From: Gemmatimonadota bacterium
Lineage (GTDB): Bacteria > Gemmatimonadota > Gemmatimonadetes > Palauibacterales > Palauibacteraceae
Length of the DNA stretch: 64,000 nt
Direction of reading: 5' to 3'
Assembly: GCA_965116475.1 (NCBI GenBank)
Contig: OZ220691.1
Location: 2,816,001 to 2,880,000, forward strand
The translations under genes were made by a program, and so were the position numbers. Positions 7,114-21,234 of this stretch are shown piece by piece. The stretch's first letter is position 1. Each line of letters opens with the position of its first letter. The notes under the pieces were generated by a model. It was not told the origin of the DNA and made no database searches. It saw only the letters and a list, made by a program, of their open reading frames with translations.

Positions 7114-9765
7114 ATGCGTATCGGCCCCGCTCCCGTTCTCGTTCTCTCCGTCAGCGTCATCCTCGGCTGTGAACCCGGCGATGGCGCGCCCGGCGTGTCC
7201 GGCGCGCCCGGACTGCTCGAGTCCGCCTCGGCGCGGCCCGTGGCGCCTCTGCTCGCCGAAGAGCCGCCGCCCGCGTTCGGCGGCTATCCCGGCGTGCGGC
7301 ACGGCGGCAACTACATGCACAACTACTACCTGCCGCCGGCGCCGGGAACGACGCCCTGGTTCCCCGCCTGGTCGCCCGATGGCGAGTCGATCGCGGTCGG
7401 GATGGCCGGCTCCGTCTGGGAAGTAGACGTGGAGACGGGCGACGCGACGGAACTCACCCGCGGGGGCACGTACCATTCGTCCCCCTCCTACTCTCCCGAT
7501 GGCCGGTGGATCGCGTACACGGCCGACTACGGCGGCGAGCGGATCCAGCTCGAGGTGCTGGACACGGAGACGGGGGAAACGCGGGCGCTGACGGACGACA
7601 GTTTCGTGTACGCCGATCCCGTGTTCTCTCCCGACGGCACACGCATCGCCTACGTGTCGAGCGCGCCCAACGGGTTCTTCAACGTCTACATCCGGGAGGT
7701 GGCGGACGGCGACTGGGCGGGGCCCGAGATCGCGGTCACGAGCGACAACTCCTACGGGAACAACCGGCTCTACTTCGGGCCCATGGACATGCACCTGTCG
7801 CCCGCGTGGATGCCGGATGGCGAGGAACTCCTCCTCGTCTCGAACCGCGACGTGCCGCTGGGCTCGGGGAATGTGATCCGGGTGCCGGCGCGCGCGGACG
7901 GAATCCGGGAGGCACGGACGGTGCTGCGGGAGCAGACGCTGTACCGCACGCGGCCGGACGTGTCGCTGCACGGCCGGCGCTTCGTCTACTCGTCGACGGC
8001 GGGGGCGGCGGACCAGTTCAACAACCTGTACGTGCAGCCGACCGAGGGCGGCGAGCCGTACAAGCTCACCTTCTTCGAGCACGACGCCTTCCACCCGCGC
8101 TGGTCGCCCGATGGGGAGACGATCGCCTACATCACGAACGAGGGCGGCCTCCCGCAACTCGAACTCATCGAGACCTACGGCGGCGGCCGGCGGCGGATCG
8201 AGATCGGCGAGCGCACCTACGCGGGGCCCACGGGCATGCTCTCGGTCACGGTGCGCACGGACGCGAGCGGGCGGGATCCCGTGCCGGCGCGCGTCACGCT
8301 CCTGGGGCCGGACGGCAAGTACCACGGCCCGCCCGACGAGTACGCCCGCATCGGCCAGCGCGGGCGCTATCCCGCCTTCCACACGGACGGGACGTTCACG
8401 GTCGCCCTCCCGCCGGGCGAGGCGGACCTCACCATCGTGAAGGGCTTCGAGATCGAGCCGCAGCGCATGAAGGTGGCGCTCGAGGCGGACGCCACGGTGG
8501 CGCTCGAGGTCACGCTGCACCGGTTCGCGGACCTCTCGGCGGACGGCTGGCACAACGGCTCCACGCACGTGCATATGAACTATGCGGGGAACCTGCACAA
8601 CACGCTCGAGAACCTGATGTTCATGTCCGCGGCGGAGGACCAGGACATCGTGAACGAGCAGGTGGCGAACAAGGACAACCGGATCCTCGACCACCAGTTC
8701 TTCGTGCCCGGGGGCGGAGAGCACCCGGTGTCGGCGGAGACCGAGGACATGGTCGTCATCGTGGGGCAGGAGTATCGGCCGCCGTTCTACGGGCACGTGT
8801 TCATGTTCGGGATGCGCGACCACCTCATCTCACCCTTCACGACGGGATACGAGGGGACGGCGATCGAGAGCCTCTATCCGTCGAACACGGACATGATGCG
8901 GAAGGCGAAGGACCAGGGGGCGACGACGGGCTACGTCCACCCCTACTTCGGCGATGTCGACCCGCTCACGTTCGGGCTCATGGGCGGGAAGGGGTTCATG
9001 GTCGACGCCGTGCTGGGAACGAGCGACGCGCTCGAGTGGTCCACGGCGGAGCGCGCCGGCTTCTTCCCGCTCTACGCGCTGTGGAGCAACGACGTGCGCG
9101 TCTGCGCCACGGGCGGGGAGGACTCGATCAGCAACCTGCACGCGACGCCGCTCGTGGGGGCGATGCGAACGTACGTGCGCCCGCCGGACGGGCGCCTGAC
9201 GGCCGACGGGTGGTTCGAGGGCCTGCGCGGCGCCGCGGCGTTCGTGACGAACGGGCCGCTCGTCGAACTCACGGTAAACGGGGCGATCCCCGGTTCCGTC
9301 CTCGACCTGGGCGGGGACGCGGCGAGCGTGGAGGTGGAGGCCAGCGTGCGGTCGATCGTGCCGCTGACCCGGGCCTGGCTCGTGCGCGACGGCGAGGACG
9401 TCCTCGAACTCGAACTCTCCGAGGACCGCCTGTCGGCGTCCTACGCGGGTGACGTCGAGATCGACGGAAGCGGCTGGATCCACCTGCGGGCCGAGGGCGA
9501 GCCCGAGGAACGGTTCCCGCTCGACGCGGCTTACCCGCAGGGGTTCACGAACCCCGTCTGGTTCACGGTCGGCGGCGCGGCGATCCGCGACGCGGCGGGC
9601 GCGCAGTACGGCCTCGACTGGATCGACGAACTCGAACGCCAGGCGCGGGAGTGGCCCGGCTGGCGGTCGCAGTCGGAGCAGGACCACGTCTACGCCCAGT
9701 TCGAAGAGGCCCGCGACGTGTACCGACGGCTCCTGTCCGAGGCCGGCGGCACGGGCGGCGAGTGA
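7114..9765 (+). CDS. Lipoprotein with TolB-like (PD40) propeller and CehA/McbA-type PHP-fold metallohydrolase domain
   Basis: ILGC lipobox; repeated WSPDG/YSPDG/FSPDG; GWHNGSTHVHMN, GQEYRPPFYGH, GYVHP, ATGGEDS, TNGP. Confidence 0.78.
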   Translation: MRIGPAPVLVLSVSVILGCEPGDGAPGVSGAPGLLESASARPVAPLLAEEPPPAFGGYPGVRHGGNYMHNYYLPPAPGTTPWFPAWSPDGESIAVGMAGSVWEVDVETGDATELTRGGTYHSSPSYSPDGRWIAYTADYGGERIQLEVLDTETGETRALTDDSFVYADPVFSPDGTRIAYVSSAPNGFFNVYIREVADGDWAGPEIAVTSDNSYGNNRLYFGPMDMHLSPAWMPDGEELLLVSNRDVPLGSGNVIRVPARADGIREARTVLREQTLYRTRPDVSLHGRRFVYSSTAGAADQFNNLYVQPTEGGEPYKLTFFEHDAFHPRWSPDGETIAYITNEGGLPQLELIETYGGGRRRIEIGERTYAGPTGMLSVTVRTDASGRDPVPARVTLLGPDGKYHGPPDEYARIGQRGRYPAFHTDGTFTVALPPGEADLTIVKGFEIEPQRMKVALEADATVALEVTLHRFADLSADGWHNGSTHVHMNYAGNLHNTLENLMFMSAAEDQDIVNEQVANKDNRILDHQFFVPGGGEHPVSAETEDMVVIVGQEYRPPFYGHVFMFGMRDHLISPFTTGYEGTAIESLYPSNTDMMRKAKDQGATTGYVHPYFGDVDPLTFGLMGGKGFMVDAVLGTSDALEWSTAERAGFFPLYALWSNDVRVCATGGEDSISNLHATPLVGAMRTYVRPPDGRLTADGWFEGLRGAAAFVTNGPLVELTVNGAIPGSVLDLGGDAASVEVEASVRSIVPLTRAWLVRDGEDVLELELSEDRLSASYAGDVEIDGSGWIHLRAEGEPEERFPLDAAYPQGFTNPVWFTVGGAAIRDAAGAQYGLDWIDELERQAREWPGWRSQSEQDHVYAQFEEARDVYRRLLSEAGGTGGE

Positions 9766-11423: not shown

Positions 11424-11468
11424 TTGACGTGTACGACATCGTGTCGTATTCTACGACAACATGTCGTT
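11424..11468 (+). promoter_or_regulatory. Sigma70 promoter overlapped by two BlaI-type operators
   Basis: TTGACG (11424-29), 17 bp, TATTCT (11447-52); palindromes TACGACA-TCG-TGTCGTA (11432-48) and TACGACA-ACA-TGTCGTT (11452-68). Confidence 0.85.
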
Positions 11469-11495
11469 GTTTACTGTCAACGGAGAGATCTGTCG

Positions 11496-11864
11496 ATGAC
11501 GGTACCGAAGCTGGCGAACGCCGAACTCGCGGTCATGGCGCGGCTCTGGCAACAGGGCGCTCAGACGGCGCGCCTGCTGCGCGAACACCTCTACCCGGAC
11601 GCCGCCAACTCGATGCACGGAACGATCCAGCGACTGCTGCAACGGCTGGAGGACAAGGGGTTCATCGACCGGGACAGCGACCGCGCGGCCCACCTGTTCA
11701 CGCCGCGCGTCAGCCGTGAGGCCTACGCGGCCGGCCGTCTCGAGGCCCTGGCGGATCAGGTCACCGGCGGCTCGTTCGTGCCGATGATCACGCACCTGGT
11801 GGAGGAACGGAAACTCTCCGACGCTGACATGGAACGCCTGCGCCGGCTGCTGGAGGAGCAATGA
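11496..11864 (+). CDS. BlaI/MecI/CopY family transcriptional repressor
   Basis: LANAELAVMARLW...TIQRLLQRLEDKGFIDRD...AHLFTPRVSRE; adjacent to an M56 peptidase gene. Confidence 0.9.
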   Translation: MTVPKLANAELAVMARLWQQGAQTARLLREHLYPDAANSMHGTIQRLLQRLEDKGFIDRDSDRAAHLFTPRVSREAYAAGRLEALADQVTGGSFVPMITHLVEERKLSDADMERLRRLLEEQ

Positions 11865-13288
11865 CCGACCTCGCCCTGCAGATCGCCGGCAGCAAGCTCG
11901 CGATCTCGATGGTCCTCGGTGGTGCGGTCTGGTTCGCCGCAAGGGGAAACGAGCGACCGCGCCTGTGTCACGCGCTCTGTCTCACCCTGCTCGCGGCGCT
12001 GCTCGTCCCGCCACTGATCGGGGTCCCGGTCCTGCAGCCCGAACCCTCGGCCCCCGTACCAGCCGACATCGCGTCGCGTGACGCCACCCACCCATTCACC
12101 GTGGCCATCGGTGACCCCCGGTCCGATGTGCCCGACGGAGAAGTTGACGGAGGGTGGTTCGCGGCCTACGGAGGGTTGGGCTTCGTCTTGCTCTGGTTCT
12201 TGGGCGCTGTCGTGGTCCTGGGCTGGACTATTGTGAGGACGCAACGCTTCCGCCGCTCTCTGAGGGGAGCCTCGCGCGAAGCCCCCGCGCAGCTACAGCG
12301 GATGGCGGGGGACATCGCCCGCCCACTGGGCCTCGAGAGAGTTCCGACGATCCGCGTGACGGACGCGCTCGTTTCCCCGATGGTGTGGTGGAGCGGAGCC
12401 ACCGTTCACGTTCTCGTCCCGTCTACCCTCCTCGATGGACTGGAAGAGGCCGAGTTACGGTGCATCGTCGCGCACGAGCTGGCACATGTCCGACGGCGCG
12501 ACCACGTCGTTCGCTGGCTCGAGTGGGTCGCGTGCACGGTGTTCTGGTGGAACCCGGTGGCATGGTGGGCACGGCGGCAACTTCGTGCGGCCGGGGAGGT
12601 TTGCTCCGATGCTCTGGCGGTGAGCGCCCTCGACTGTGTACCGCGCGACTACGCCCGTGCGCTCGTGCGGGCGATTGACCGACTGCGTACCGAGCGGGCG
12701 CCTCGCCTGCCGGCATTTGCGAGCGCCGCCGACAACGGTCGACGAACACGACCGCTTGAGAGGAGACTTCGAATGATCATCACCAACAAGCCCGTTGCGA
12801 CCCCCTCGCAGGCACTTCGCTTGGCGTTGCGAGGAGGCCTGGTGGCCTCGCTGGTCCTGGGACTGGTCTATTGCAGCGAGCCGACTTCGCCGACCGAAAC
12901 CGAACTTCCGGCCGCCACCCTGACCGACGCGCCCCGGCAGGTCGTCAAGACGCCACCGATCCGTGGCGAGGCGGAGGAAGCGAGTTGGAGTTGGTGGGTC
13001 GCGGGCGGCCCAGCCGATTTGCTGCCAATGCGCATTGACGGCGACGCTCCGCTGCCGACACCCGAGGAACAGGAGCGATTGCTGGCGGAACTCGCCGAGA
13101 CTCCCGCGCTACCCGAGGGCTCGCGCTATCAAGTGTTCTTCGACGTTTCCTTTGAGGAGAAGGAGATCGTCGACTTCGCCCGCAAGTTCGACATCGTCTA
13201 CCTAAAGTCGTCGCCGCCGGGGTTGGACCTGAACATGCTGGTGGAACCACAAACGGCCGACCCGGTCGACACCCCAACCGGCCGATAG
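11861..13288 (+). CDS. M56 family (BlaR1/MecR1-like) membrane metallopeptidase
   Basis: TM segments; AHELAHVRRRD zinc motif; FWWNPVAW; EVCSD; ATGA overlap with repressor gene. Confidence 0.9.
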   Translation: MTDLALQIAGSKLAISMVLGGAVWFAARGNERPRLCHALCLTLLAALLVPPLIGVPVLQPEPSAPVPADIASRDATHPFTVAIGDPRSDVPDGEVDGGWFAAYGGLGFVLLWFLGAVVVLGWTIVRTQRFRRSLRGASREAPAQLQRMAGDIARPLGLERVPTIRVTDALVSPMVWWSGATVHVLVPSTLLDGLEEAELRCIVAHELAHVRRRDHVVRWLEWVACTVFWWNPVAWWARRQLRAAGEVCSDALAVSALDCVPRDYARALVRAIDRLRTERAPRLPAFASAADNGRRTRPLERRLRMIITNKPVATPSQALRLALRGGLVASLVLGLVYCSEPTSPTETELPAATLTDAPRQVVKTPPIRGEAEEASWSWWVAGGPADLLPMRIDGDAPLPTPEEQERLLAELAETPALPEGSRYQVFFDVSFEEKEIVDFARKFDIVYLKSSPPGLDLNMLVEPQTADPVDTPTGR

Positions 13289-13314
13289 CGAGCGGCCCCG
13301 GGGCGCTGGCGCCG

Positions 13315-13336
13315 GAGACGTTCCCGTGGGAACGTC
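13315..13336. repeat. Palindromic REP-like element GAGACGTTCCCGTGGGAACGTC (copy 2)
   Basis: 19/20 identity to 11385-11404. Confidence 0.75.
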
Positions 13337-13430
13337 AGGGCGGCGCGGTAGAGCAACCGGGAGCGGGGGAGAGGGTGGCCATCGCCCGGCGCACTAGCAC
13401 GGAAGTGTCAATCCCGTAGCGCCGGATCAT
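13335..13430 (-). pseudogene. Truncated PIN-domain toxin remnant
   Basis: MIRRYGIDTSVLVR matches the first PIN strand (D-T-S-V-L) and overlaps the antitoxin end; frame stops after 31 aa. Confidence 0.65.
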
Positions 13431-13650
13431 GGGGCTGGGCGCGGAAGGCGTGGACGTCGAACGGCTCGGTTCCCGGGCGCACGTGGGTACGTAGCGGCGC
13501 CAAGCGTGAGAAGTCGATCCGGAGCGGACGCAGGACAAAGCCGTCCGGACCCTCCTCCAGCCGAAGGCGGTCGCCGGGCTGGGCGCCGAGCGATTCCAGT
13601 ACTTCGGCCGGGAGCGTGATCCGGCCTCCTTCTTCGATCCTGAGCAACAT
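13408..13650 (-). CDS. AbrB/MazE/SpoVT-type antitoxin
   Basis: MLLRIEEGGRITLPAEVLESLGAQPGDRLRLEEGPDGFVLRP, AbrB signature; GGAGG RBS. Confidence 0.8.
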   Translation of the reverse strand: MLLRIEEGGRITLPAEVLESLGAQPGDRLRLEEGPDGFVLRPLRIDFSRLAPLRTHVRPGTEPFDVHAFRAQPHDPALRD

Positions 13651-13758
13651 CGTGGCCTCCACTTGAACGGTTTGCCGAGCATACCCCCGCGACGGAAAGC
13701 TGTGCCGCGTCCTTGACGACTGCCGCCCCGCGCGAAGATCATCCGCGGGTTCGAGATC

Positions 13759-14592
13759 ATGCGACTTCAGCCCCCGCAACCGCCTCCCATGTTTACGCCG
13801 GCCCGGAAAAAGCTGCTGTTGGCCGTGCTGGTGCTCTCCTTCGGAGTCCAGACGGGGCTGGTGTACTCGGACGCGCGGAGCGAGCCGCTGTCGGAGGCGG
13901 CGCGCGAGGGGCGTGCGCTCTGGCAGGCGCATGCCTGTCAAACCTGTCACCAGTTCTACGGTCAGGGGGGATTCCTCGGGCCGGATCTGACGAACGCCGC
14001 GAGCCGGGTTGATTCGACCCGGCTCGTTTCGTTGTTGACGGTGGGGAGCGGGCAGATGCCGCCGCTCGGGTTCAGCGACGCGGAGTCGGCGGCGATGGCG
14101 GCCTTCCTGCGCGAGATGGACCGGCCGGAGATCGGTCGCGGCGAACTTCGGATGGGGACGCCGGGGGAGGGCGCGGGGGCGCAGGCGGCGTTCGAGCGCG
14201 CGATCGAGGCGGCGCTCGGGGCCGGGGCGGGTCAGGGCCTGGCCGAAGTCGCCGCCGGGTTCGAGGCCTACCGGATCCGGCCGTGCAGCGCGTGCCATTT
14301 CCCGTTCCGCGACTCGCCCGTCGGGGCGCCGGATCTGTCGCTCGTCGCCGGGTCGGCCGGGTCGGCCGGGTCGCTCGCGGCCGACTCGCTCGACCGGGTG
14401 CTCGCCGAGGGTCGTCCCCTCCTGGGCATGCCGCCGCCCGTGCCGCCGCTGGACGCCGCCGACCGGGCCGCGCTGACCGCGTTCCTCGAGTTCCTGAGCG
14501 CGAACCGCGAACAACTGGAGACGGCGACGGAGGCGCTCGCGGCGGGCCGCCGGCTCGACTGGGGCGCGCTGCCCTGGTGGGAGTTCCCGTGA
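13759..14592 (+). CDS. Membrane-anchored di-heme cytochrome c, NorC-like
   Basis: N-terminal TM; CQTCHQFYGQGGFLGPDLTN...QMP (NorC-like); second CSACH...GMPPP domain. Confidence 0.8.
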   Translation: MRLQPPQPPPMFTPARKKLLLAVLVLSFGVQTGLVYSDARSEPLSEAAREGRALWQAHACQTCHQFYGQGGFLGPDLTNAASRVDSTRLVSLLTVGSGQMPPLGFSDAESAAMAAFLREMDRPEIGRGELRMGTPGEGAGAQAAFERAIEAALGAGAGQGLAEVAAGFEAYRIRPCSACHFPFRDSPVGAPDLSLVAGSAGSAGSLAADSLDRVLAEGRPLLGMPPPVPPLDAADRAALTAFLEFLSANREQLETATEALAAGRRLDWGALPWWEFP

Positions 14593-15989
14593 AGCCCTTC
14601 GCGGCCGGCCACCCCGCGCACCAGTTCGCCGTGCTGACGTTCCTCCGCGGCGGATTGATCGCGATCGCGATCACGCTCGTGGGCGGGATCCTCGCCGCGT
14701 TCTACTCCATCCCCTCGCTCGCGCCGTGGTTCCAGCAGGTGGGCCTCGACCTGCGGCAACTGCGGCCGATCCACACCGTGTTCGCCTCCGCCTGGGTCTT
14801 CCTGGGCGGTGTCGCGGTCGTGTACCGCTTCCTCCAGGACGAGGGGTCGCCGACGATGGGCGACCGCTGGCGCCTCCGGATCCAGGTCCTGACCTGGGCG
14901 GCCGCCGGCCTCGGGATCCTCCTCACGCTGGCCATGGGCATCGGGACCGGCCGGGAGTACGTCGGCTTCCACCCCTTCTTCTCCCTCCTCATCCTCGCGG
15001 GCTGGGTCTGCTACGCGTGGAACTTCTTCCGCGTCGCCGGGAAGCGGTTCTGGGAGCGGCCCGTCTACGTGACGATGTGGGGCGTGGGGATGCTCTTCTT
15101 CATCGTCACCTTCCTCGAGCAGCACGCGTGGCTGATCCCGGGCATCTTCGGCGATCCGGTACAGGACATGCGGATCCAGTGGAAGGCGACGGGCACCCTC
15201 GTCGGCAGCTTCAACCTCTTCGTCTACGGCTCCGTGATCTACCTCGGCGAGCGGATCTCGGGGGATCCGTCCTACGGGCGCTCGACGACCGCGTACATGC
15301 TGTTCGCGGTGGGGCTGCTCAACTCGTTCACCAACTTCGCGCACCACACGTATCACCTTCCGGGGCGGGAGTCGGTGAAGTGGATCGCGTTCGTCGTGAG
15401 CATGATGGAGATCATCGTGCTCGCGCGGGCCATGTTCGACCTGTGGCGGGCGCTCCGGACGCCGAGCGACCCGGCCTTCTGCGCGGCCCGCGGTTCGTTC
15501 GCGGCGGCGAAGTGGTGGACGTGCGCGATCCTGTTCGGGGCCATCCTCATCTCGGTCCCGCCGCTGAACGCGGTGATTCACGGGACGTACGTCGTCACGG
15601 GACACGCGATGGGGGCGATGATCGGCATCGACACGATGATCCTGCTGGGGGCGATGATCTGGATCCTGAGCGAGCACCTGCAGACCCGCGAGGGAGAGGA
15701 CGCCTGGGATACGCTCCATACGCCGGCCATGCGCTGGAGTCTCATCGGGCTGAACTTCTCGGTGGCGGCGCTCGTGCTCTGGCTGCACGTGGTGGGGACG
15801 GCCGTCGGCGTGACCCGGGCGGTGCACGCGCCGGGCGAGACCTACGTGCCGCCGGACTGGGTGTCCGCCTGGAGCGGGATCGGGTTCGCGGTCTTCGGCA
15901 CGCTGTCGCTCGTCTTCTTCGCGTGGCTCCTCGCGCAGCTCATGCCGCCCGCCTTCCGGTATTTTTGGGTGTCGGAGGAACGGGCATGA
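14589..15989 (+). CDS. Divergent heme-copper oxidase superfamily subunit I, cNOR NorB-like
   Basis: GTGA overlap; about 12 TM; RPIHT, GREY, FAHHTY, SMME, IHGTYVVTGHAM align by eye to NorB motifs. Confidence 0.75.
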   Translation: MKPFAAGHPAHQFAVLTFLRGGLIAIAITLVGGILAAFYSIPSLAPWFQQVGLDLRQLRPIHTVFASAWVFLGGVAVVYRFLQDEGSPTMGDRWRLRIQVLTWAAAGLGILLTLAMGIGTGREYVGFHPFFSLLILAGWVCYAWNFFRVAGKRFWERPVYVTMWGVGMLFFIVTFLEQHAWLIPGIFGDPVQDMRIQWKATGTLVGSFNLFVYGSVIYLGERISGDPSYGRSTTAYMLFAVGLLNSFTNFAHHTYHLPGRESVKWIAFVVSMMEIIVLARAMFDLWRALRTPSDPAFCAARGSFAAAKWWTCAILFGAILISVPPLNAVIHGTYVVTGHAMGAMIGIDTMILLGAMIWILSEHLQTREGEDAWDTLHTPAMRWSLIGLNFSVAALVLWLHVVGTAVGVTRAVHAPGETYVPPDWVSAWSGIGFAVFGTLSLVFFAWLLAQLMPPAFRYFWVSEERA

Positions 15990-16020
15990 CGGCGTCGTGG
16001 GCCGGAAGGGCCGGCCGGGC

Positions 16021-17979
16021 GTGACGGGCGCGGAACGTCCGCTGTGGACGCCGGATCCCGACTTCGCCGCGACGACGAACATGGCGCGGTTCGCGCGCTA
16101 CGCGAACGAGGCGTGCGGGGCGGGCGCCGATGCCCCGGAGGCGCTGTGGCGCTGGTCGGTCCGCGAGCCGGAGGCGTTCTGGAACGCGGTGTGGGACTTC
16201 TGCGGCGTCATCGGGGAGCGCGGCGAGCGCGTCGTCCTCGACTTCGACCGCCTGCCGGGGGCGCGCTGGTATCCGGACGCGCGGCTGAACTACGCGGAGA
16301 ACCTGCTCCGCCGCCGGGACGACGGGCCGGCGCTCCTCTTCCGGGCCGAGGACCGCGTGCGCCGCGACCTCACGTGGGCGCAACTGTACGACACCACGTC
16401 GCGGCTCGCCCAGGCGCTGGACGCGCTCGGCATCGAGCCCGGCGACCGGGTGGCCGGCTACGTGCCCAACATGCCCGAGTCCATCGTGTACATGCTCGCC
16501 TCGGCGAGCCTCGGGGCCACGATCTCGACCGCCTCGCCCGACTTCGGCGTGCAGGGCGTCCTCGACCGCTTCGGGCAGATCGAACCGCGCGTCCTCCTCG
16601 CGGCCGACGGCTACTTCTGGCAGGGAAAGCGCTACTCGAGCCTCGACCGCCTGCCGGAGATCGTCCGCCGCCTCCCCTCGGTGGAGCGCGTGATCATCGT
16701 CCCCCACACCGAGCCGAACCCGGACATATCCGAGATCCCGGGCGCGGTGCGGTTCGACGACTTCTGCGGCCCGTGGAGTCCGCGGGAGATCGAGTTCCGG
16801 CGGCTCCCGTTCGACCATCCCCTCTACATCCTCTTCTCCTCCGGCACGACCGGGGTCCCGAAGTGCATCGTGCATTCGGCGGGCGGCGTCCTCCTCACGC
16901 ACCTCAAGGAGCATCAACTCCACGCCGACATCCGGCGGGGCGATCGCGCCTTCTACTACACCACCTGCGGGTGGATGATGTGGAACTGGCTCGCCTCGGC
17001 GCTGGCGAGCGAGGCGACCGTGGTCCTGTACGACGGCTCGCCCTTCCACCCCGGGCCGCACGTCCTGTTCGACTACGCGGACGAAGTGCGCATGACCCAG
17101 CTCGGCGTGTCCGCGAAGTTCATCGATGCGCTCGGGAAGGAGGGCCTGCGCCCGCGGGAGACGCACGATCTGGCTTCGGTGCGGACGATGCTCTCCACCG
17201 GCTCTCCCCTCGTCCCGGAAGGGTTCGACTACGTGTACCGGGACGTGAAGCCCGACGTCCACCTCGCCTCGATCTCGGGCGGGACGGACCTGTGCGCGGG
17301 GTTCGTGGTCGGACACCCGCTCCTGCCCGTGTGGCGGGGCGAGATCCAGGCGCCGTCGCTCGGAATGGACGTGGATGTGTGGGATGACGAGGGGCGGTCG
17401 ATGCCGGCGGGGAAGGGGGAACTCGTCTGCAAGTCGCCCTTCCCGTCGGTGCCGATGGGGTTCTGGGGAGACGAGGACGGGAGCCGCTTCCACGCGGCGT
17501 ACTTCGACATGTATCCCAACGTCTGGCGGCACGGCGACTGGATGGAGTGGACGGAGCACGGCGGCGCGGTGATCTACGGCCGCTCCGACGCGACGCTGAA
17601 CGCGGGCGGGGTGCGGATCGGGACGGCGGAGATCTACCGGCTCGTGGACCGGATGCCGGAAATCCTGGAATCCATCGTCATCGGGCAGCCGTGGGAAAAC
17701 GACACGCGCGTCGTCCTCTTCGTGCGGCTCGCGGAAGGCCGGAGCCTGGACGAGGACCTGGAAGCGCGGATCCGAAGGGAGATCCGGGAGAACGCCTCGC
17801 CCCGCCACGTCCCGGCGCGGATCCTGCAGGTGGCGGACATCCCCCGCACGAAGAGCGCCAAGATCTCGGAACTCGCCGTGCGCGCCGTGGTACTGGGAGA
17901 GTCCGTCAAGAACGTCGAGGCGCTCGCGAACCCCGAGGCCCTCGACGACTACCGCAACCGCCCCGAACTCCAGACGTAG
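16021..17979 (+). CDS. Acetoacetate--CoA ligase (acetoacetyl-CoA synthetase)
   Basis: ARLNYAENLL, SPDFGVQGVLDRFGQIEP, FSSGTTGVPKCIVH, YYTTCGWMMWNWL, SISGGTD, GRSDATLNAGGVRIGTAEIY, ALANPEAL. Confidence 0.93.
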   Translation: MTGAERPLWTPDPDFAATTNMARFARYANEACGAGADAPEALWRWSVREPEAFWNAVWDFCGVIGERGERVVLDFDRLPGARWYPDARLNYAENLLRRRDDGPALLFRAEDRVRRDLTWAQLYDTTSRLAQALDALGIEPGDRVAGYVPNMPESIVYMLASASLGATISTASPDFGVQGVLDRFGQIEPRVLLAADGYFWQGKRYSSLDRLPEIVRRLPSVERVIIVPHTEPNPDISEIPGAVRFDDFCGPWSPREIEFRRLPFDHPLYILFSSGTTGVPKCIVHSAGGVLLTHLKEHQLHADIRRGDRAFYYTTCGWMMWNWLASALASEATVVLYDGSPFHPGPHVLFDYADEVRMTQLGVSAKFIDALGKEGLRPRETHDLASVRTMLSTGSPLVPEGFDYVYRDVKPDVHLASISGGTDLCAGFVVGHPLLPVWRGEIQAPSLGMDVDVWDDEGRSMPAGKGELVCKSPFPSVPMGFWGDEDGSRFHAAYFDMYPNVWRHGDWMEWTEHGGAVIYGRSDATLNAGGVRIGTAEIYRLVDRMPEILESIVIGQPWENDTRVVLFVRLAEGRSLDEDLEARIRREIRENASPRHVPARILQVADIPRTKSAKISELAVRAVVLGESVKNVEALANPEALDDYRNRPELQT

Positions 17980-18000: not shown

Positions 18001-18450
18001 TCAGCGCGACCTGTCCGCCCATGGGTTGACGACTTCGATGCCCGTGTTCCGGAAGTCTCGCTCGTTCCGAGTGACGAGGATGAGACCGTGACGCGCGGCC
18101 GCGCCCGCCAGCATCGCGTCCGGCAGGTGGTCCTCGAGCGGTTCGCCTCGCCGCCTCTTCGATTCCATGATGCGGGCGCAGGCTTGGGCGTCGCCGAGGG
18201 TCCAGTCGAGAATCCGTTCGCGGAAGAGGTCATCCAGAAGGCCCTGGAACCGCTCGGCCAGCCGTTCCCGCCGCCCACCAGCGTCCATACGGCCGATTCC
18301 ATTGAGGATCTCCCAGACCGTGACGGAAGCCAGACCGACTCCCTGGGCCCAGATTCCGTCGAGAAACCCAGCCACTCGGGGGTCGGGAGCCGGACGCATC
18401 ATCTCCGAGACCACGTTCGTATCGATGAGCCAGCGCAGAGGTGGCTTCAT
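18001..18450 (-). CDS. vapC: PIN-domain toxin (VapC/FitB-like)
   Basis: WLIDTNVVSE...SVTVWEI..GI...DAMLAGAA..HGLILVTRNERDF...VVNPW. Confidence 0.92.
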   Translation of the reverse strand: MKPPLRWLIDTNVVSEMMRPAPDPRVAGFLDGIWAQGVGLASVTVWEILNGIGRMDAGGRRERLAERFQGLLDDLFRERILDWTLGDAQACARIMESKRRRGEPLEDHLPDAMLAGAAARHGLILVTRNERDFRNTGIEVVNPWADRSR

Positions 18451-18710
18451 GCTTCGCCTCCGCCCTCATCCTCGAACACGAACGGCCTGTATCCGTGGCG
18501 AGAAGGCTCGGGCAGATCCACCCCGTACTCCGCCCCGAAGTACCTCTCGAAGACTTGCGAAGGTCTCGTTTCGCCGGCGGTATTCTCCCGCTTCTCGCGA
18601 ATCAGGCGGCGAACGAACTCCTCCATTGAGATGCCGGTGTATCGGGCCTCCCGGCGAAGCCAGGCCTTGTCGCCTGGATCGATGTCGCGGACGGTAATCG
18701 TGTTCCCCAT
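18447..18710 (-). CDS. FitA-like ribbon-helix-helix antitoxin
   Basis: TITVRDID...WLRREA...GISMEEFVRRLI; ATGA overlap with the PIN toxin. Confidence 0.8.
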   Translation of the reverse strand: MGNTITVRDIDPGDKAWLRREARYTGISMEEFVRRLIREKRENTAGETRPSQVFERYFGAEYGVDLPEPSRHGYRPFVFEDEGGGEA

Positions 18711-18753
18711 AGGCTCCACTCCTCTAAACGGGTTTCCCGCGAGCGGAAACTAG

Positions 18754-20497: not shown

Positions 20498-20526
20498 TTG
20501 ATGCAGTGATGCATATATGTTATTCT
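20498..20526 (+). promoter_or_regulatory. Promoter of vapBC with TGATGCA direct repeats
   Basis: TTGATG (20498-503), 17 bp, extended TGT-TATTCT (20521-26); TGATGCA at 20499 and 20507. Confidence 0.6.
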
Positions 20527-20535
20527 CTTCACACC

Positions 20536-20784
20536 ATGCGAACGACGATTTCCCTCGACGACCGACTGAACAGGCAGGTGCGGCGCGAAGCGGCCGCGCA
20601 GGGGATGAGTGTGAGCGCTTTCATCGCCAGAACTCTGGACGATGCGCTGAAGCGGCGCGAGGATACCGAACCGCCCCCCTTCCGACTCGTGACGGTACGT
20701 TCGCGACCCCGTCCCGGCATCGATCTCGACCGACCGAGGGCGCTGGAGGCCGATGAGGATGCCGCTCGCTTCGGACGCCGCTGA
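20536..20784 (+). CDS. vapB: CopG/RHH-type VapB antitoxin
   Basis: MRTTISLDDRL...AAAQGMSVSAFIARTL...PFRLVT...PGIDLD; upstream of a PIN toxin. Confidence 0.82.
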   Translation: MRTTISLDDRLNRQVRREAAAQGMSVSAFIARTLDDALKRREDTEPPPFRLVTVRSRPRPGIDLDRPRALEADEDAARFGRR

Positions 20785-20790
20785 TCCTCC

Positions 20791-21234
20791 GTGCTCCTTC
20801 CTGATGTCAACGTACTGATCTACGCGCACATCGACGGCTCGACGCCGGAACACGACGCGTACGCTCGGTGGGTCACTCGCATGGCCACCGGACCGGAACC
20901 CTTCGCCTTATCCGTGCTCGTCCTTTCCGGCTTCATCCGCATCGTGACCCACCCGCGGGCGTTCGATCCTCCCGTCACCCTCGACGAGGCATTCGCGTTC
21001 GTATCCTCGCTCACGGAGCGCCCGAACGCTCGAATCATTGGCCCCGGCCCCGATCACATGGTGATTCTGGAACGCCTGTGCCGTTCCGCTGGAGCCAGCG
21101 GAAAGCTGGTCTCGGATGCCCAGCACGCAGCGGTCGCTCTGGAACACGGCTGCACGATGATCTCGGCCGACGCCGATTTCGGGCGCTTTCCCGAGCTCAG
21201 ATGGCAGCACCCGCTACGGGTATCGAACCGCTGA
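20791..21234 (+). CDS. vapC: VapC family PIN ribonuclease toxin
   Basis: LPDVNVLIYAH...GFIRIVTHPR.F...GKLVSDAQHAAVALEHG..SAD.DFGRFPELRWQHP. Confidence 0.92.
   Translation: MLLPDVNVLIYAHIDGSTPEHDAYARWVTRMATGPEPFALSVLVLSGFIRIVTHPRAFDPPVTLDEAFAFVSSLTERPNARIIGPGPDHMVILERLCRSAGASGKLVSDAQHAAVALEHGCTMISADADFGRFPELRWQHPLRVSNR

What the first reader, a model, noticed from the sequence alone, without database searches (positions are those of the whole stretch)
13759..15989. NorC/NorB-like heme-copper oxidase with a rewired active site
Seen: a di-heme cytochrome c coupled (GTGA) to a ~12-TM protein that aligns by eye to cNOR NorB. Kept: helix II R-x-x-H (RPIH), GRE, the helix VII HH pair (15342-15347), SxxE and the HGT...H high-spin heme ligand. 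Changed: helix VI, normally HLWVEGxxE with the non-heme-Fe His and Glu, reads QWKATGTLVGSFN with neither residue; helix X HxH reads GHAM (15600-15611), putting Met at the second low-spin heme ligand. Known: heme-copper oxidases and NORs normally keep six His ligands. Inference: a His/Met heme and a two-His (perhaps plus Lys/Asn) or empty distal metal site, hence chemistry other than classical NO or O2 reduction, or an electron-transfer/sensing role. No norQ/norD or nitrite reductase gene in the window.
Basis: partly seen in the sequence, partly recalled or inferred. Interest (0 to 1): 0.85.

Follow-up and report, generated by a model that had tools for sequence, protein, structure and literature searches.

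The report
NorCB-like haem enzyme, remodelled active site
This gene pair encodes a membrane haem enzyme related to bacterial nitric oxide reductase whose catalytic pocket is rebuilt in a conserved way; it belongs to a widespread family already named in print as a possible nitrous oxide reductase but never tested at the bench.

Summary
At 13759-15989 (+), a membrane-anchored di-haem cytochrome c overlaps by GTGA a 466-aa, 12-helix haem-copper-oxidoreductase (HCO) subunit I.

- **Missing ligands:** helix VI has no His or Glu. The metal-binding His of cNOR and cbb3 aligns with Gly202.
- **His/Met haem:** the helix X HxH motif reads H339-A-M341, which implies a His62/Met341 low-spin haem.
- **Not decay:** these features are near-invariant in 82 diverse relatives, and dN/dS is 0.13-0.16 among close orthologues.

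The protein is not a new kind. The family is monophyletic and sister to cNOR. By matching HCO counts in two named genomes, it is the "N2Ored" family of Murali et al. 2024 (PNAS). That paper proposes it as a sulfide- and acetylene-insensitive N2O reductase, with no biochemistry.

Points I add:
- Lys199 is conserved one helical turn before the lost His.
- A rarer sister clade carries His199/Asp202/His254 instead.
- The partner cytochrome has a NorC-like first domain and is present in 75 of 75 testable loci.
- Only the gene pair is conserved across loci.
- Of 50 carrier genomes, 11 have NosZ and 19 have a nitrite reductase. The window's own genome has neither.

The substrate (N2O or NO) remains open. 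This is a new member of a known, uncharacterised kind.

The parts
13759..14592 (+). Subunit II: membrane-anchored di-haem cytochrome c, 277 aa. It has a NorC-like N-terminal module and a second CcoP-like haem c domain.
   Evidence: Translation is. Pfam Cytochrome_CBB3 matches twice. The profile of 28 partners hits NorC 3o0r_C (E 3.6e-13, profile positions 14-112) and CcoP with the second domain. Foldseek ranks NorC chains 2nd and 3rd, weakly. A same-strand upstream cytochrome c ORF is present in 75 of 75 testable loci, with two CxxCH in 70 and one in 5.
13936..13950 (+). Haem c binding motif 1 (C60-Q-T-C63-H64). The predicted axial ligand is M100.
   Evidence: C60, C63, H64 and M100 are present in 71 of 71 partner sequences and invariant in alignment A5.
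14284..14298 (+). Haem c binding motif 2 (C176-S-A-C179-H180). The predicted axial ligand is M224.
   Evidence: C176, C179, H180 and M224 are present in 71 of 71 partner sequences and invariant in alignment A5.
14589..14592 (+). GTGA overlap: the GTG start of the HCO gene overlaps the TGA stop of the cytochrome c gene, which suggests translational coupling.
   Evidence: Read directly from the sequence.
14589..15989 (+). Subunit I: HCO-superfamily catalytic subunit, 466 aa, 12 TM helices, of the cNOR-sister "N2Ored" family (K-type clade).
   Evidence: Pfam COX1 scores 83.6 bits. The AF2 model has pLDDT 90.6 and pTM 0.91. VIA-align gives cNOR 4xyd_A Z 39.4 (rmsd 2.5, 424 aligned), cbb3 Z about 38 and cNOR 3o0r_B Z 37.5. 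The link to the named family rests.
14772..14774 (+). H62 (helix II, in RPIH): first axial ligand of the low-spin haem b.
   Evidence: His in 81 of 82 family sequences and in 6 of 6 cNOR and 6 of 6 cbb3 references in the same column.
14949..14960 (+). G121-R-E-Y124: E123 sits in the column of the Glu in the cbb3 KEY motif. It may keep the Ca2+/propionate site; that assignment is from recalled knowledge and was not tested.
   Evidence: G121 81, R122 79, E123 79 and Y124 81 of 82. The cbb3 references have E and Y in these columns.
15117..15119 (+). E177: family-specific invariant Glu at the periplasmic end of helix V. Its role is unknown.
   Evidence: Glu in 82 of 82 family sequences. The column is a gap in cNOR and V or F in cbb3.
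15177..15227 (+). Helix VI distal-pocket face, Q197-W-K199-A-T-G202-T-L-V-G206-S-F-N209-L-F-V-Y213. G202 replaces the FeB/CuB His, and no Glu is present.
   Evidence: hhalign against cNOR gives probability 99.8% with the His on G202. The HMMER alignment to 3o0r_B gives the same register. cbb3 QWWYGH aligns with QWKxxG.
15342..15347 (+). H252-H253 (helix VII): the two retained ligands of the distal metal site.
   Evidence: H252 in 80 and H253 in 79 of 82. All cNOR and cbb3 references have HH here.
15603..15611 (+). H339-A-M341 (helix X): H339 is the proximal ligand of the high-spin haem b3, and M341 replaces the second His ligand of the low-spin haem.
   Evidence: H339 in 79 and M341 in 76 of 82. 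cNOR and cbb3 references have H-x-H.

Best explanation
The two genes encode a two-subunit, cytochrome c-dependent terminal reductase on the C-type/NOR branch of the haem-copper oxidoreductase superfamily. It is a member of the cNOR-sister family that Murali et al. 2024 call "N2Ored".

**Shown**
- The fold is the 12-helix HCO fold.
- The haem ligands H62 and H339 and the helix VII HH pair are retained.
- The helix VI His and Glu of cNOR and the cross-link Tyr of cbb3 are absent.
- The second low-spin haem ligand is Met.
- A NorC-like di-haem cytochrome c is always encoded immediately upstream.
- The gene is under purifying selection.

**Inferred path**
1. A periplasmic donor reduces the two c haems of the anchored subunit.
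2. Electrons pass to the His/Met haem b. The paper suggests about +150 mV of extra potential for the same ligand change in nNOR.
3. Electrons reach the high-spin haem b3.
4. The distal pocket there is formed by H252, H253, K199, N209 and Y213.

K199 lies one helical turn before the lost His. It either replaces that His as the third N-ligand of a distal metal, or its ammonium group takes the metal's place.

The substrate is most likely a small nitrogen oxide. I put N2O, the published proposal, at about 0.3 and NO at about 0.3. I lean slightly to N2O for two reasons. In denitrifying carriers a canonical NOR-like gene sits beside nirK while this gene lies elsewhere. Most carriers also lack NosZ.
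For: **Fold and kinship**
- Family and fold.
- Family monophyly has support 0.927, and family plus cNOR has 0.979 when rooted on cbb3.

**Identity with "N2Ored"**
- Dataset S6 lists Palauibacter denitrificans type assembly GCA_009841015.1 with A=2 and N2Ored=2 and no other HCO. It lists UBA2161 sp002328835 with A=1 and N2Ored=1.
- My PF00115 scans of the genomes holding L002 and L078 found exactly 2 A-type plus 2 of this family, and 1 A-type plus 1 of this family.
- The orthologues in the first of these genomes (L002, L006) are 94-95% identical to the window's protein.

**Conservation**
- Residue counts.
- dN/dS is 0.125-0.163.

**Partner cytochrome**
- Present in 75 of 75 testable loci.
- NorC-like.
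- Fused HCO + FixO + cytochrome c forms exist.

**Distribution**
- Of 50 carrier genomes, NosZ is present in 11, NirK in 16 (14 over cut-off) and NirS in 5.
- In G222, G234, G236 and G237 an HCO hit of about 210-225 bits lies within 5 kb of nirK, while this family's gene is on another contig or far away.
Against: - **No biochemistry:** none exists for any member. Searches found none.
- **Weak physiological lead:** the N2O proposal rests on 1990-92 physiology of Flexibacter canadensis. Solitalea canadensis, listed with N2Ored=1, also has nosZ and nosD in Dataset S8, so the old phenotype need not come from this enzyme.
- **No pathway linkage:** 25 of 50 carriers have neither Nir nor NosZ. Flanking genes are not conserved. 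FNR/Dnr-type boxes are not enriched upstream, at 2 of 75 loci against 9 of 1480 background windows.
- **Chemical precedent:** a haem site without a full second-metal site has no precedent for N2O reduction. This point is recalled knowledge.
- **Model limits:** the AF2 model has no cofactors and I could not read its coordinates. The geometry of K199, N209 and Y213 is inferred from helical periodicity only.
Confidence: 0.55

Rival explanations
1. It is specifically a copper-independent, membrane-bound N2O reductase, as Murali et al. propose. N2O would be reduced at ferrous haem b3, with Lys, His and Tyr acting as proton and hydrogen-bond donors.
For: - The published proposal (passages seen).
- 39 of 50 carrier genomes have no detectable NosZ, and the window's own genome has none.
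- The gene is not clustered with nirK and the NOR-like gene where those exist.
Against: - 11 of 50 carriers do have NosZ, as does Solitalea canadensis.
- There is no link to nos accessory genes or any other conserved neighbour.
- There is no experimental support.
- MAG incompleteness inflates the count of genomes without NosZ.
Confidence: 0.3
2. It is a nitric oxide reductase with a non-canonical second-metal site (2 His + Lys in place of 3 His + Glu). It would act in NO detoxification or as an extra respiratory NOR, comparable to the variant sites of eNOR, sNOR and gNOR.
For: - The family is sister to cNOR and has a NorC-like partner.
- The paper states that several different HCO active sites support NO reduction.
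- 4 of 19 Nir-positive carriers (5 counting one weak NirK hit) have no other NOR-like HCO.
- Sporadic neighbours are NnrS (L070) and a hemerythrin (L067).
- An earlier scan note on another genome also guessed NO.
Against: - 14 of 19 Nir-positive carriers also hold a canonical-looking cNOR or qNOR-type hit. In four of those (G222, G234, G236, G237) it lies within 5 kb of nirK, while this gene lies elsewhere.
- Both Glu residues that characterise FeB sites are missing.
- The window's genome has no NO-producing nitrite reductase.
Confidence: 0.3
3. It acts on something else (O2 at low tension, H2O2, nitrite, hydroxylamine or similar), or serves as an electron-transfer or sensor module rather than an N-oxide reductase.
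For: - Half of the carriers (25 of 50) lack both Nir and NosZ.
- No neighbourhood is conserved.
- The 10 carrier genomes in the Gemmatimonadota sample show no cbb3 or cNOR hit.
Against: - The cross-link Tyr column of cbb3 is variable in the family, and Murali et al. use that absence to exclude O2 reduction.
- Roughly 20 of 50 carriers also have probable C-type oxidases (360-415-bit tier), so the enzyme is not a cbb3 replacement.
- Strict conservation of the high-spin haem ligand and the pocket face argues for catalysis.
Confidence: 0.14
4. It is a decaying norB pseudogene, or the His losses are sequencing errors in this genome.
For: None found.
Against: - The frame is intact.
- The same residues occur in 64-82 of 82 relatives from several phyla.
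- dN/dS is 0.13-0.16.
- The AF2 model is confident.
- Contigs of close relatives are present in independent runs.
Confidence: 0.01

Closest known systems
"N2Ored" HCO family (Murali, Pace, Sanford, Ward, Lynes, Hatzenpichler, Lingappa, Fischer, Gennis, Hemp; PNAS 2024, PMC11214002)
   Same: By genome-by-genome HCO counts it is the same family. It is closely related to cNOR on the C branch, lacks the active-site Tyr and is uncharacterised. Carriers include Bacteroidota, Planctomycetota, Gemmatimonadota (KS3-K002 = Palauibacterales), Acidobacteriota and Woeseiales.
   Different: Nothing separates the window's protein from the family. The passages I could read do not describe the family's active-site residues. 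Figure 1 and the SI Appendix were not readable here, so the Lys199/Gly202/Met341 description may or may not already be in print.
cNOR (NorCB), e.g. P. aeruginosa 3O0R and Roseobacter denitrificans 4XYD
   Same: It is the best sequence-profile and structure match (98.8 and 74.1 bits; Z 39.4 and 37.5). It shares the 12-TM subunit, the His ligands on helices II, VII and X, a NorC-like anchored cytochrome c and the HGT motif.
   Different: The helix VI HLWVEGxWE motif is replaced by QWKxxGxLVGxxN, so the FeB His and both Glu are missing. HxH becomes HxM. The partner has a second haem c domain. The genome has no norQ-type gene.
cbb3 oxidase (CcoN/O/P), e.g. 3MK7 and 8SMR
   Same: The fold score is equal (Z about 38). 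It shares the Q-W start of helix VI and the KEY/REY Glu. The partner's second domain is CcoP-like, and fused relatives carry a FixO segment.
   Different: The CuB His (QWWYGH) is Gly. The cross-link Tyr column is not conserved. The low-spin haem is His/Met.
nNOR, gNOR and eNOR (B-family-derived NOR families, same paper)
   Same: They set precedents for single features. nNOR has a His/Met low-spin haem. Some eNORs have a His/Lys low-spin haem. gNOR has one active-site His replaced by Asp (passage seen).
   Different: Those families descend from B-type oxidases and have CuA-type partners. This family sits on the C/cNOR branch, has a cytochrome c partner, and has lost a different His (helix VI).

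Membership tests
Haem-copper oxidoreductase superfamily (Pfam PF00115) | 12-TM subunit I fold and a profile match over the curated cut-off | tested here: met
   COX1 scores 83.6 bits against a cut-off of 34.8. The AF2 model has pTM 0.91. Z is 37-39 to cNOR and cbb3.
Haem-copper oxidoreductase superfamily (Pfam PF00115) | Six canonical His ligands: helix II, helix VI, helix VII HH and helix X HxH | tested here: not met
   Four of six are present (H62, H252, H253, H339). The helix VI His is G202 and the second helix X His is M341.
cNOR (NorCB) | FeB ligands: helix VI His plus Glu (HLWVEGxWE) | tested here: not met
   Residues 186-224 contain no His or Glu. 6 of 6 Gemmatimonadota cNOR references keep HLWVEGxWE.
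cNOR (NorCB) | Membrane-anchored NorC cytochrome c partner encoded upstream | tested here: met
   The partner profile hits NorC 3o0r_C at E 3.6e-13 over the TM helix and first haem domain. The partner carries an extra second haem domain.
cNOR (NorCB) | NorQ/NorD accessory genes | tested here: not met
   There is no CbbQ_C (PF08406) match in the 96%-complete genome. NorD was not searched separately.
cbb3 oxidase (C family) | CuB with three His, and the helix VII cross-link Tyr (HHLxY) | tested here: not met
   The CuB His column is G202. The Tyr column (256) reads H30/P11/T9/I7 and others in the family, against Y in 6 of 6 cbb3 references.
"N2Ored" family of Murali et al. 2024 | Assigned to the family by the authors' HMM classification of GTDB genomes | tested here: met
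   The test is indirect and works by elimination. GCA_009841015.1 (type of Palauibacter denitrificans) is listed with A=2 and N2Ored=2, and UBA2161 sp002328835 with A=1 and N2Ored=1. My scans of the genomes holding L002 and L078 found 2 A + 2 of this family, and 1 A + 1 of this family. The authors' HMM itself was not available.
"N2Ored" family of Murali et al. 2024 | Branches next to cNOR within the C branch and lacks the active-site Tyr | tested here: met
   FastTree gives family plus cNOR 0.979 and family monophyly 0.927, rooted on cbb3.
"N2Ored" family of Murali et al. 2024 | N2O reductase activity insensitive to sulfide and acetylene | not testable with these tools
   This is only a proposal in the paper. 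No enzyme has been assayed.

The most novel reading that the evidence does not exclude
The K-type enzymes, including this one, are haem-only or copper-independent N2O reductases. In them a lysine ammonium (K199) has taken the place of the second metal beside haem b3. That would be a second, nosZ-independent biological sink for N2O, operating in many nosZ-less marine, sponge-associated and soil bacteria. The rarer His199/Asp202/His254 sister clade would preserve the metal-bearing ancestral state.
Probability: 0.15. Interest if true: 0.9.

Novelty: new member of a known kind. Interest (0 to 1): 0.42.

Why it matters
NosZ is the only biological N2O-consuming enzyme that is generally accepted. If this family reduces N2O, gene-based N2O budgets miss a sink. 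The sink would be present in genomes with no nosZ (39 of the 50 carriers scanned), including abundant sponge symbionts. If the family reduces NO at a site with two His and a Lys, it widens the set of active sites known to make N2O. Either result bears on how O2, NO and N2O reduction evolved on one protein scaffold. The window adds no new kind of enzyme. It does give sharper, testable residue-level predictions: the role of K199, a His/Met haem, and the contrast with the His/Asp sister clade.

Tried and rejected
- **Single-sequence searches:** phmmer of the protein against PDB sequences found nothing at E <= 1; only the family profile reached cNOR. tblastn against plasmid records, meant to fetch annotated norB/fixN references, found nothing. 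I took cNOR and cbb3 references from Gemmatimonadota genomes instead. One of the 7 cNOR-tier regions fetched (L099) gave no ORF with the motifs and was left out.
- **Neighbourhood:** 127 flanking ORFs from 38 diverse loci showed no recurrent partner beyond the cytochrome c. Thirteen ORFs over about 700 aa were dropped to fit the size limit after one search failed.
- **Upstream motifs:** TTGA-N6-TCAA occurs upstream in 2 of 75 loci, against 9 of 1480 background windows.
- **Cluster look-up:** 10 representatives returned no names.
- **Literature:** a search for "N2Ored" returned only unrelated uses of the string. Searches found no follow-up biochemistry.
- **Complex prediction:** subunit I, subunit II and four haems could not be run. 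The queue was full and the tool was then declared unavailable.
- **Expression:** contigs from a sponge metatranscriptome library (X3) cover all 30 bins of 13300-16300 at 90-99% identity. The flanks are covered too and DNA carry-over cannot be excluded, so this is not evidence of transcription.
- **cbb3 replacement:** I considered and rejected this idea, because probable C-type oxidases co-occur with the family in about 20 of 50 carriers.
Full report
**What is there.** The window has about 70% G+C. At 13759-14592 (+) lies a 277-aa protein with an N-terminal hydrophobic helix and two CxxCH motifs. At 14589-15989 (+) lies a 466-aa protein whose GTG start overlaps the upstream TGA stop as GTGA. 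The second protein matches Pfam COX1 at 83.6 bits, against a cut-off of 34.8. The first matches Cytochrome_CBB3 twice. NCBIfam gives only a far-sub-threshold cbb3 hit. H252/H253 are at 15342-15347 and G338-H-A-M341 at 15600-15611.

**Are the ligand losses real?**
- phmmer of the single protein finds no solved structure.
- A profile of 35 diverse relatives (A2) finds cNOR 4xyd_A (98.8 bits), cNOR 3o0r_B (74.1), qNOR 3ayf (64.3) and cbb3 (64.1 and 61.1).
- In those alignments HGTxxxxxHxH of cNOR lies on HGTxxxxxHxM, so M341 takes the place of the second low-spin haem ligand.
- I fetched canonical enzymes from Gemmatimonadota genomes found with the family profile. Of 7 cNOR-tier regions, 6 gave a NorB with HLWVEGxWE, HH and HxH. 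All 7 of 7 lower-tier regions gave cbb3 CcoN with HHLxY and HxH.
- hhalign of A2 against the six cNORs gives probability 99.8% and puts the FeB His on G202.
- In a MAFFT alignment of 82 family members, 6 cNOR and 6 cbb3, the cbb3 motif QWWYGH lies on QWKxxG. This gives the same register.
The conclusion stands, because the segment has neither His nor Glu.

**Is it conserved?**
- The 90%-clustered search found 479 relatives. The best 120 are 67-92% identical, and those that carry a name are Gemmatimonadota or JGI "nitric oxide reductase subunit B".
- The exhaustive 50%-representative search found 299 proteins at E <= 1e-3 and 113 at E <= 1e-30.
- I aligned P0001 with the 81 of the 150 listed representatives that are at least 400 aa. 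The 69 shorter fragments were left out.
- Counts out of 82 are H62 81, E123 79, E177 82, Q197 76, W198 79, K199 64 (His 17, Arg 1), G202 65 (Asp 16), N209 78, Y213 78, H252 80, H253 79, H339 79 and M341 76.
- dN/dS against seven orthologues of 89-95% identity is 0.125-0.163.
- Decay and sequencing error are excluded.

**Fold.** AF2 with the alignment gives pLDDT 90.6 and pTM 0.91, with twelve long helices. Foldseek puts cbb3 and cNOR on top with TM 0.75-0.79. VIA-align gives cNOR 4xyd_A Z 39.4 (rmsd 2.5, 424 aligned), cbb3 chains Z 36.8-38.6 and cNOR 3o0r_B Z 37.5. These are effectively tied and stand well above A- and B-type oxidases at about Z 30. The model has no cofactors and I could not read its coordinates.

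**The partner.**
- All 75 loci with at least 700 nt upstream have a same-strand cytochrome c ORF ending at the HCO start. It has two CxxCH in 70 and one in 5. Five further loci were cut too short to test.
- In 71 partners both CxxCH motifs and M100 and M224 are invariant. A C-terminal PWWE motif is nearly so.
- The partner profile hits NorC 3o0r_C (E 3.6e-13) with its TM helix and first domain, and CcoP with its second domain.
- A fold search of its model (pLDDT 81) ranks NorC chains second and third, weakly.
- Some relatives are single polypeptides of about 800 aa with COX1 + FixO + cytochrome c domains.
- "NorC/NorB-like" is therefore correct. A physical complex is inferred, because the complex predictor was unavailable.

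**Which family?** Murali et al. 2024 (PMC11214002) describe six HCO families that lack the active-site Tyr. I saw passages of the paper, and of the 2021 preprint. [quoted passage not shown] It counts 293 GTDB genomes.
- Dataset S6 lists the GTDB order KS3-K002, genus JAAXHJ01, with A=2 and N2Ored=1-2 and nothing else. It lists UBA2161 sp002328835 with A=1 and N2Ored=1.
- KS3-K002 is Palauibacterales, and GCA_009841015.1 is the type of Palauibacter denitrificans (PMC10469786: passages, supplement rows).
- Loci L002 and L006 are titled Ca. Palauibacter denitrificans and are 94-95% identical to the window's protein.
- My PF00115 scan of that genome finds four HCOs: two A-type (547 and 505 bits) and two of this family (87 and 86 bits). 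The UBA2161 genome has one A-type and one of this family.
- The window's own genome has two A-type and this one.
- By elimination, this family is N2Ored.
- The Bacteroidota that dominate the authors' list belong to the same K-type clade. Named relatives of P0161 are Flavobacteriaceae, Chitinophagaceae, Sphingobacteriales and Niastella.
- KEGG-based annotation of Palauibacterales did not call these genes norB.
The scan has therefore found this before on other DNA.

**Tree.** FastTree (LG+gamma, 452 columns), rooted on cbb3, gives these supports:

| Grouping | Sequences | Support |
|---|---|---|
| Family monophyletic | 82 | 0.927 |
| Family + cNOR | 88 | 0.979 |
| K-type clade (Q-W-K...G, including this protein) | 66 | 0.864 |
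| His/Asp-type clade (Q-W-H...D, with HHH on helix VII) | 16 | 1.0 |

Named members of the second clade are Opitutales, Saprospirales, Parvularculaceae and Oceanipulchritudo. Positions 199, 202 and 254 change together between the clades. That is a single event, so it is suggestive only.

**Context and distribution.**
- *Window neighbours.* They are unrelated: acyl-CoA synthetases, a BlaI/BlaR1-like pair, a MazE-like gene and two PIN/RHH pairs.
- *Flanks in other loci.* Flanks of 38 diverse loci share nothing recurrent. Single cases of NnrS, hemerythrin and Usp occur.
- *The window's genome (96% complete).* It has no NosZ, no NirS and no NirK over cut-off. The 86-bit NirK hit is a two-domain multicopper oxidase. 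It has no CbbQ_C/NorQ.
- *50 carrier genomes.* NosZ is in 11, NirK in 16 (14 over cut-off) and NirS in 5. Any Nir is in 19, and 25 have neither Nir nor NosZ.
- *NOR co-occurrence.* By PF00115 score tiers, which is my own reading, 14 of the 19 Nir-positive genomes also hold a cNOR or qNOR-like hit. In four of these it lies within 5 kb of nirK, while this family's gene is elsewhere. Four genomes (five counting one weak NirK hit) have Nir plus this family only.
- *Gemmatimonadota sample.* In 201 genomes the family is in 10, including 6 of 7 further genomes of the window's genus. Those 10 show no cNOR or cbb3 hit.
- *Caveat.* Most of these are MAGs, so absences are soft.

**Mechanism.** Retention of H339, the HH pair and the Glu of GREY, and the always-present cytochrome c, are shown. 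The electron path is inferred: c haems, then His/Met haem b, then haem b3.

On a helix, residues i-3/i-4, i+3/i+4 and i+7 share a face. K199, G206, N209 and Y213 should therefore line the pocket that the lost His202 faced. K199 could be the third N-donor of a retained metal or could replace the metal. The sister clade's His199/Asp202/His254 looks like a fuller metal site.

Substrate cannot be settled from sequence. My distribution data are about neutral between N2O and NO, with a slight lean to N2O. The canonical NOR-like gene, not this one, sits beside nirK in denitrifying carriers, and NosZ is usually absent from carriers. Against the N2O proposal, Solitalea canadensis, the organism behind it, also has nosZ.

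**Verdict.** It is a member of a named but biochemically untested family. Figure 1 and the SI Appendix of the 2024 paper could not be read, so I cannot say whether the Lys, Gly and Met details are already printed.

Noticed in passing
window 11424-13288 (+): A BlaI/MecI-type repressor (Penicillinase_R, 85.7 bits) is followed, with a 4-base overlap, by a BlaR1-like M56 membrane peptidase (89.8 bits) that carries HELAH. This is a signal-transducing pair about 470 bp upstream of the cytochrome c gene, with a small gene on the opposite strand in between.
   Followed up: partly
window 13411-13650 (-): An 80-aa MazE/AbrB-type DNA-binding protein is encoded divergently, 108 bp from the cytochrome c start. 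No toxin gene lies beside it. It could be a local regulator, but it is not conserved next to the operon in other lineages.
   Followed up: partly
window 18004-18719 (-) and 20506-21231 (+): Two PIN-domain toxin plus ribbon-helix-helix antitoxin pairs (VapBC/FitAB-like) lie within 3 kb of each other.
   Followed up: no
L092:1141-2295 (+) = G000:C1 about 2119710-2120864: A 385-aa two-domain multicopper oxidase has a twin-arginine-like leader and HCH/HxH copper motifs. It is the source of the sub-threshold NirK hit (86 bits against a cut-off of 296). It is not a canonical nitrite reductase.
   Followed up: partly
proteins P0221-P0269 (e.g. P0250, P0225, P0232): This is the sister clade of the family, with Q-W-H...D on helix VI and HHH on helix VII. 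It gave 72 hits at E <= 1e-30, and named members are Opitutales, Saprospirales, Parvularculaceae and Oceanipulchritudo. It may keep a full distal metal site.
   Followed up: partly
proteins P0154, P0160, P0181, P0197 (788-824 aa): These are single-polypeptide forms of the family. The HCO subunit is fused at its C-terminus to cytochrome c domains, preceded by a FixO-like segment in P0160, P0181 and P0197.
   Followed up: no
L044:7516-10647 (+): In an Isosphaeraceae MAG, a 1044-aa protein with 11 CxxCH motifs, LVIVD repeats and a dockerin-like end lies 75 bp downstream of the HCO gene. It could be an extracellular or periplasmic electron conduit.
   Followed up: no
G251:C6:35921-37280 (-): In the genome that holds L077, titled a Bdellovibrionota MAG (GC 0.39), two adjacent PF00115 matches include one with four in-frame stops (1 TGA, 1 TAG, 2 TAA). 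This looks like a broken HCO gene.
   Followed up: no
window 7114-9765 (+): An 883-aa secreted protein has TolB/PD40 beta-propeller repeats at the N-terminus and a large C-terminal part with no Pfam match at E <= 0.001.
   Followed up: no
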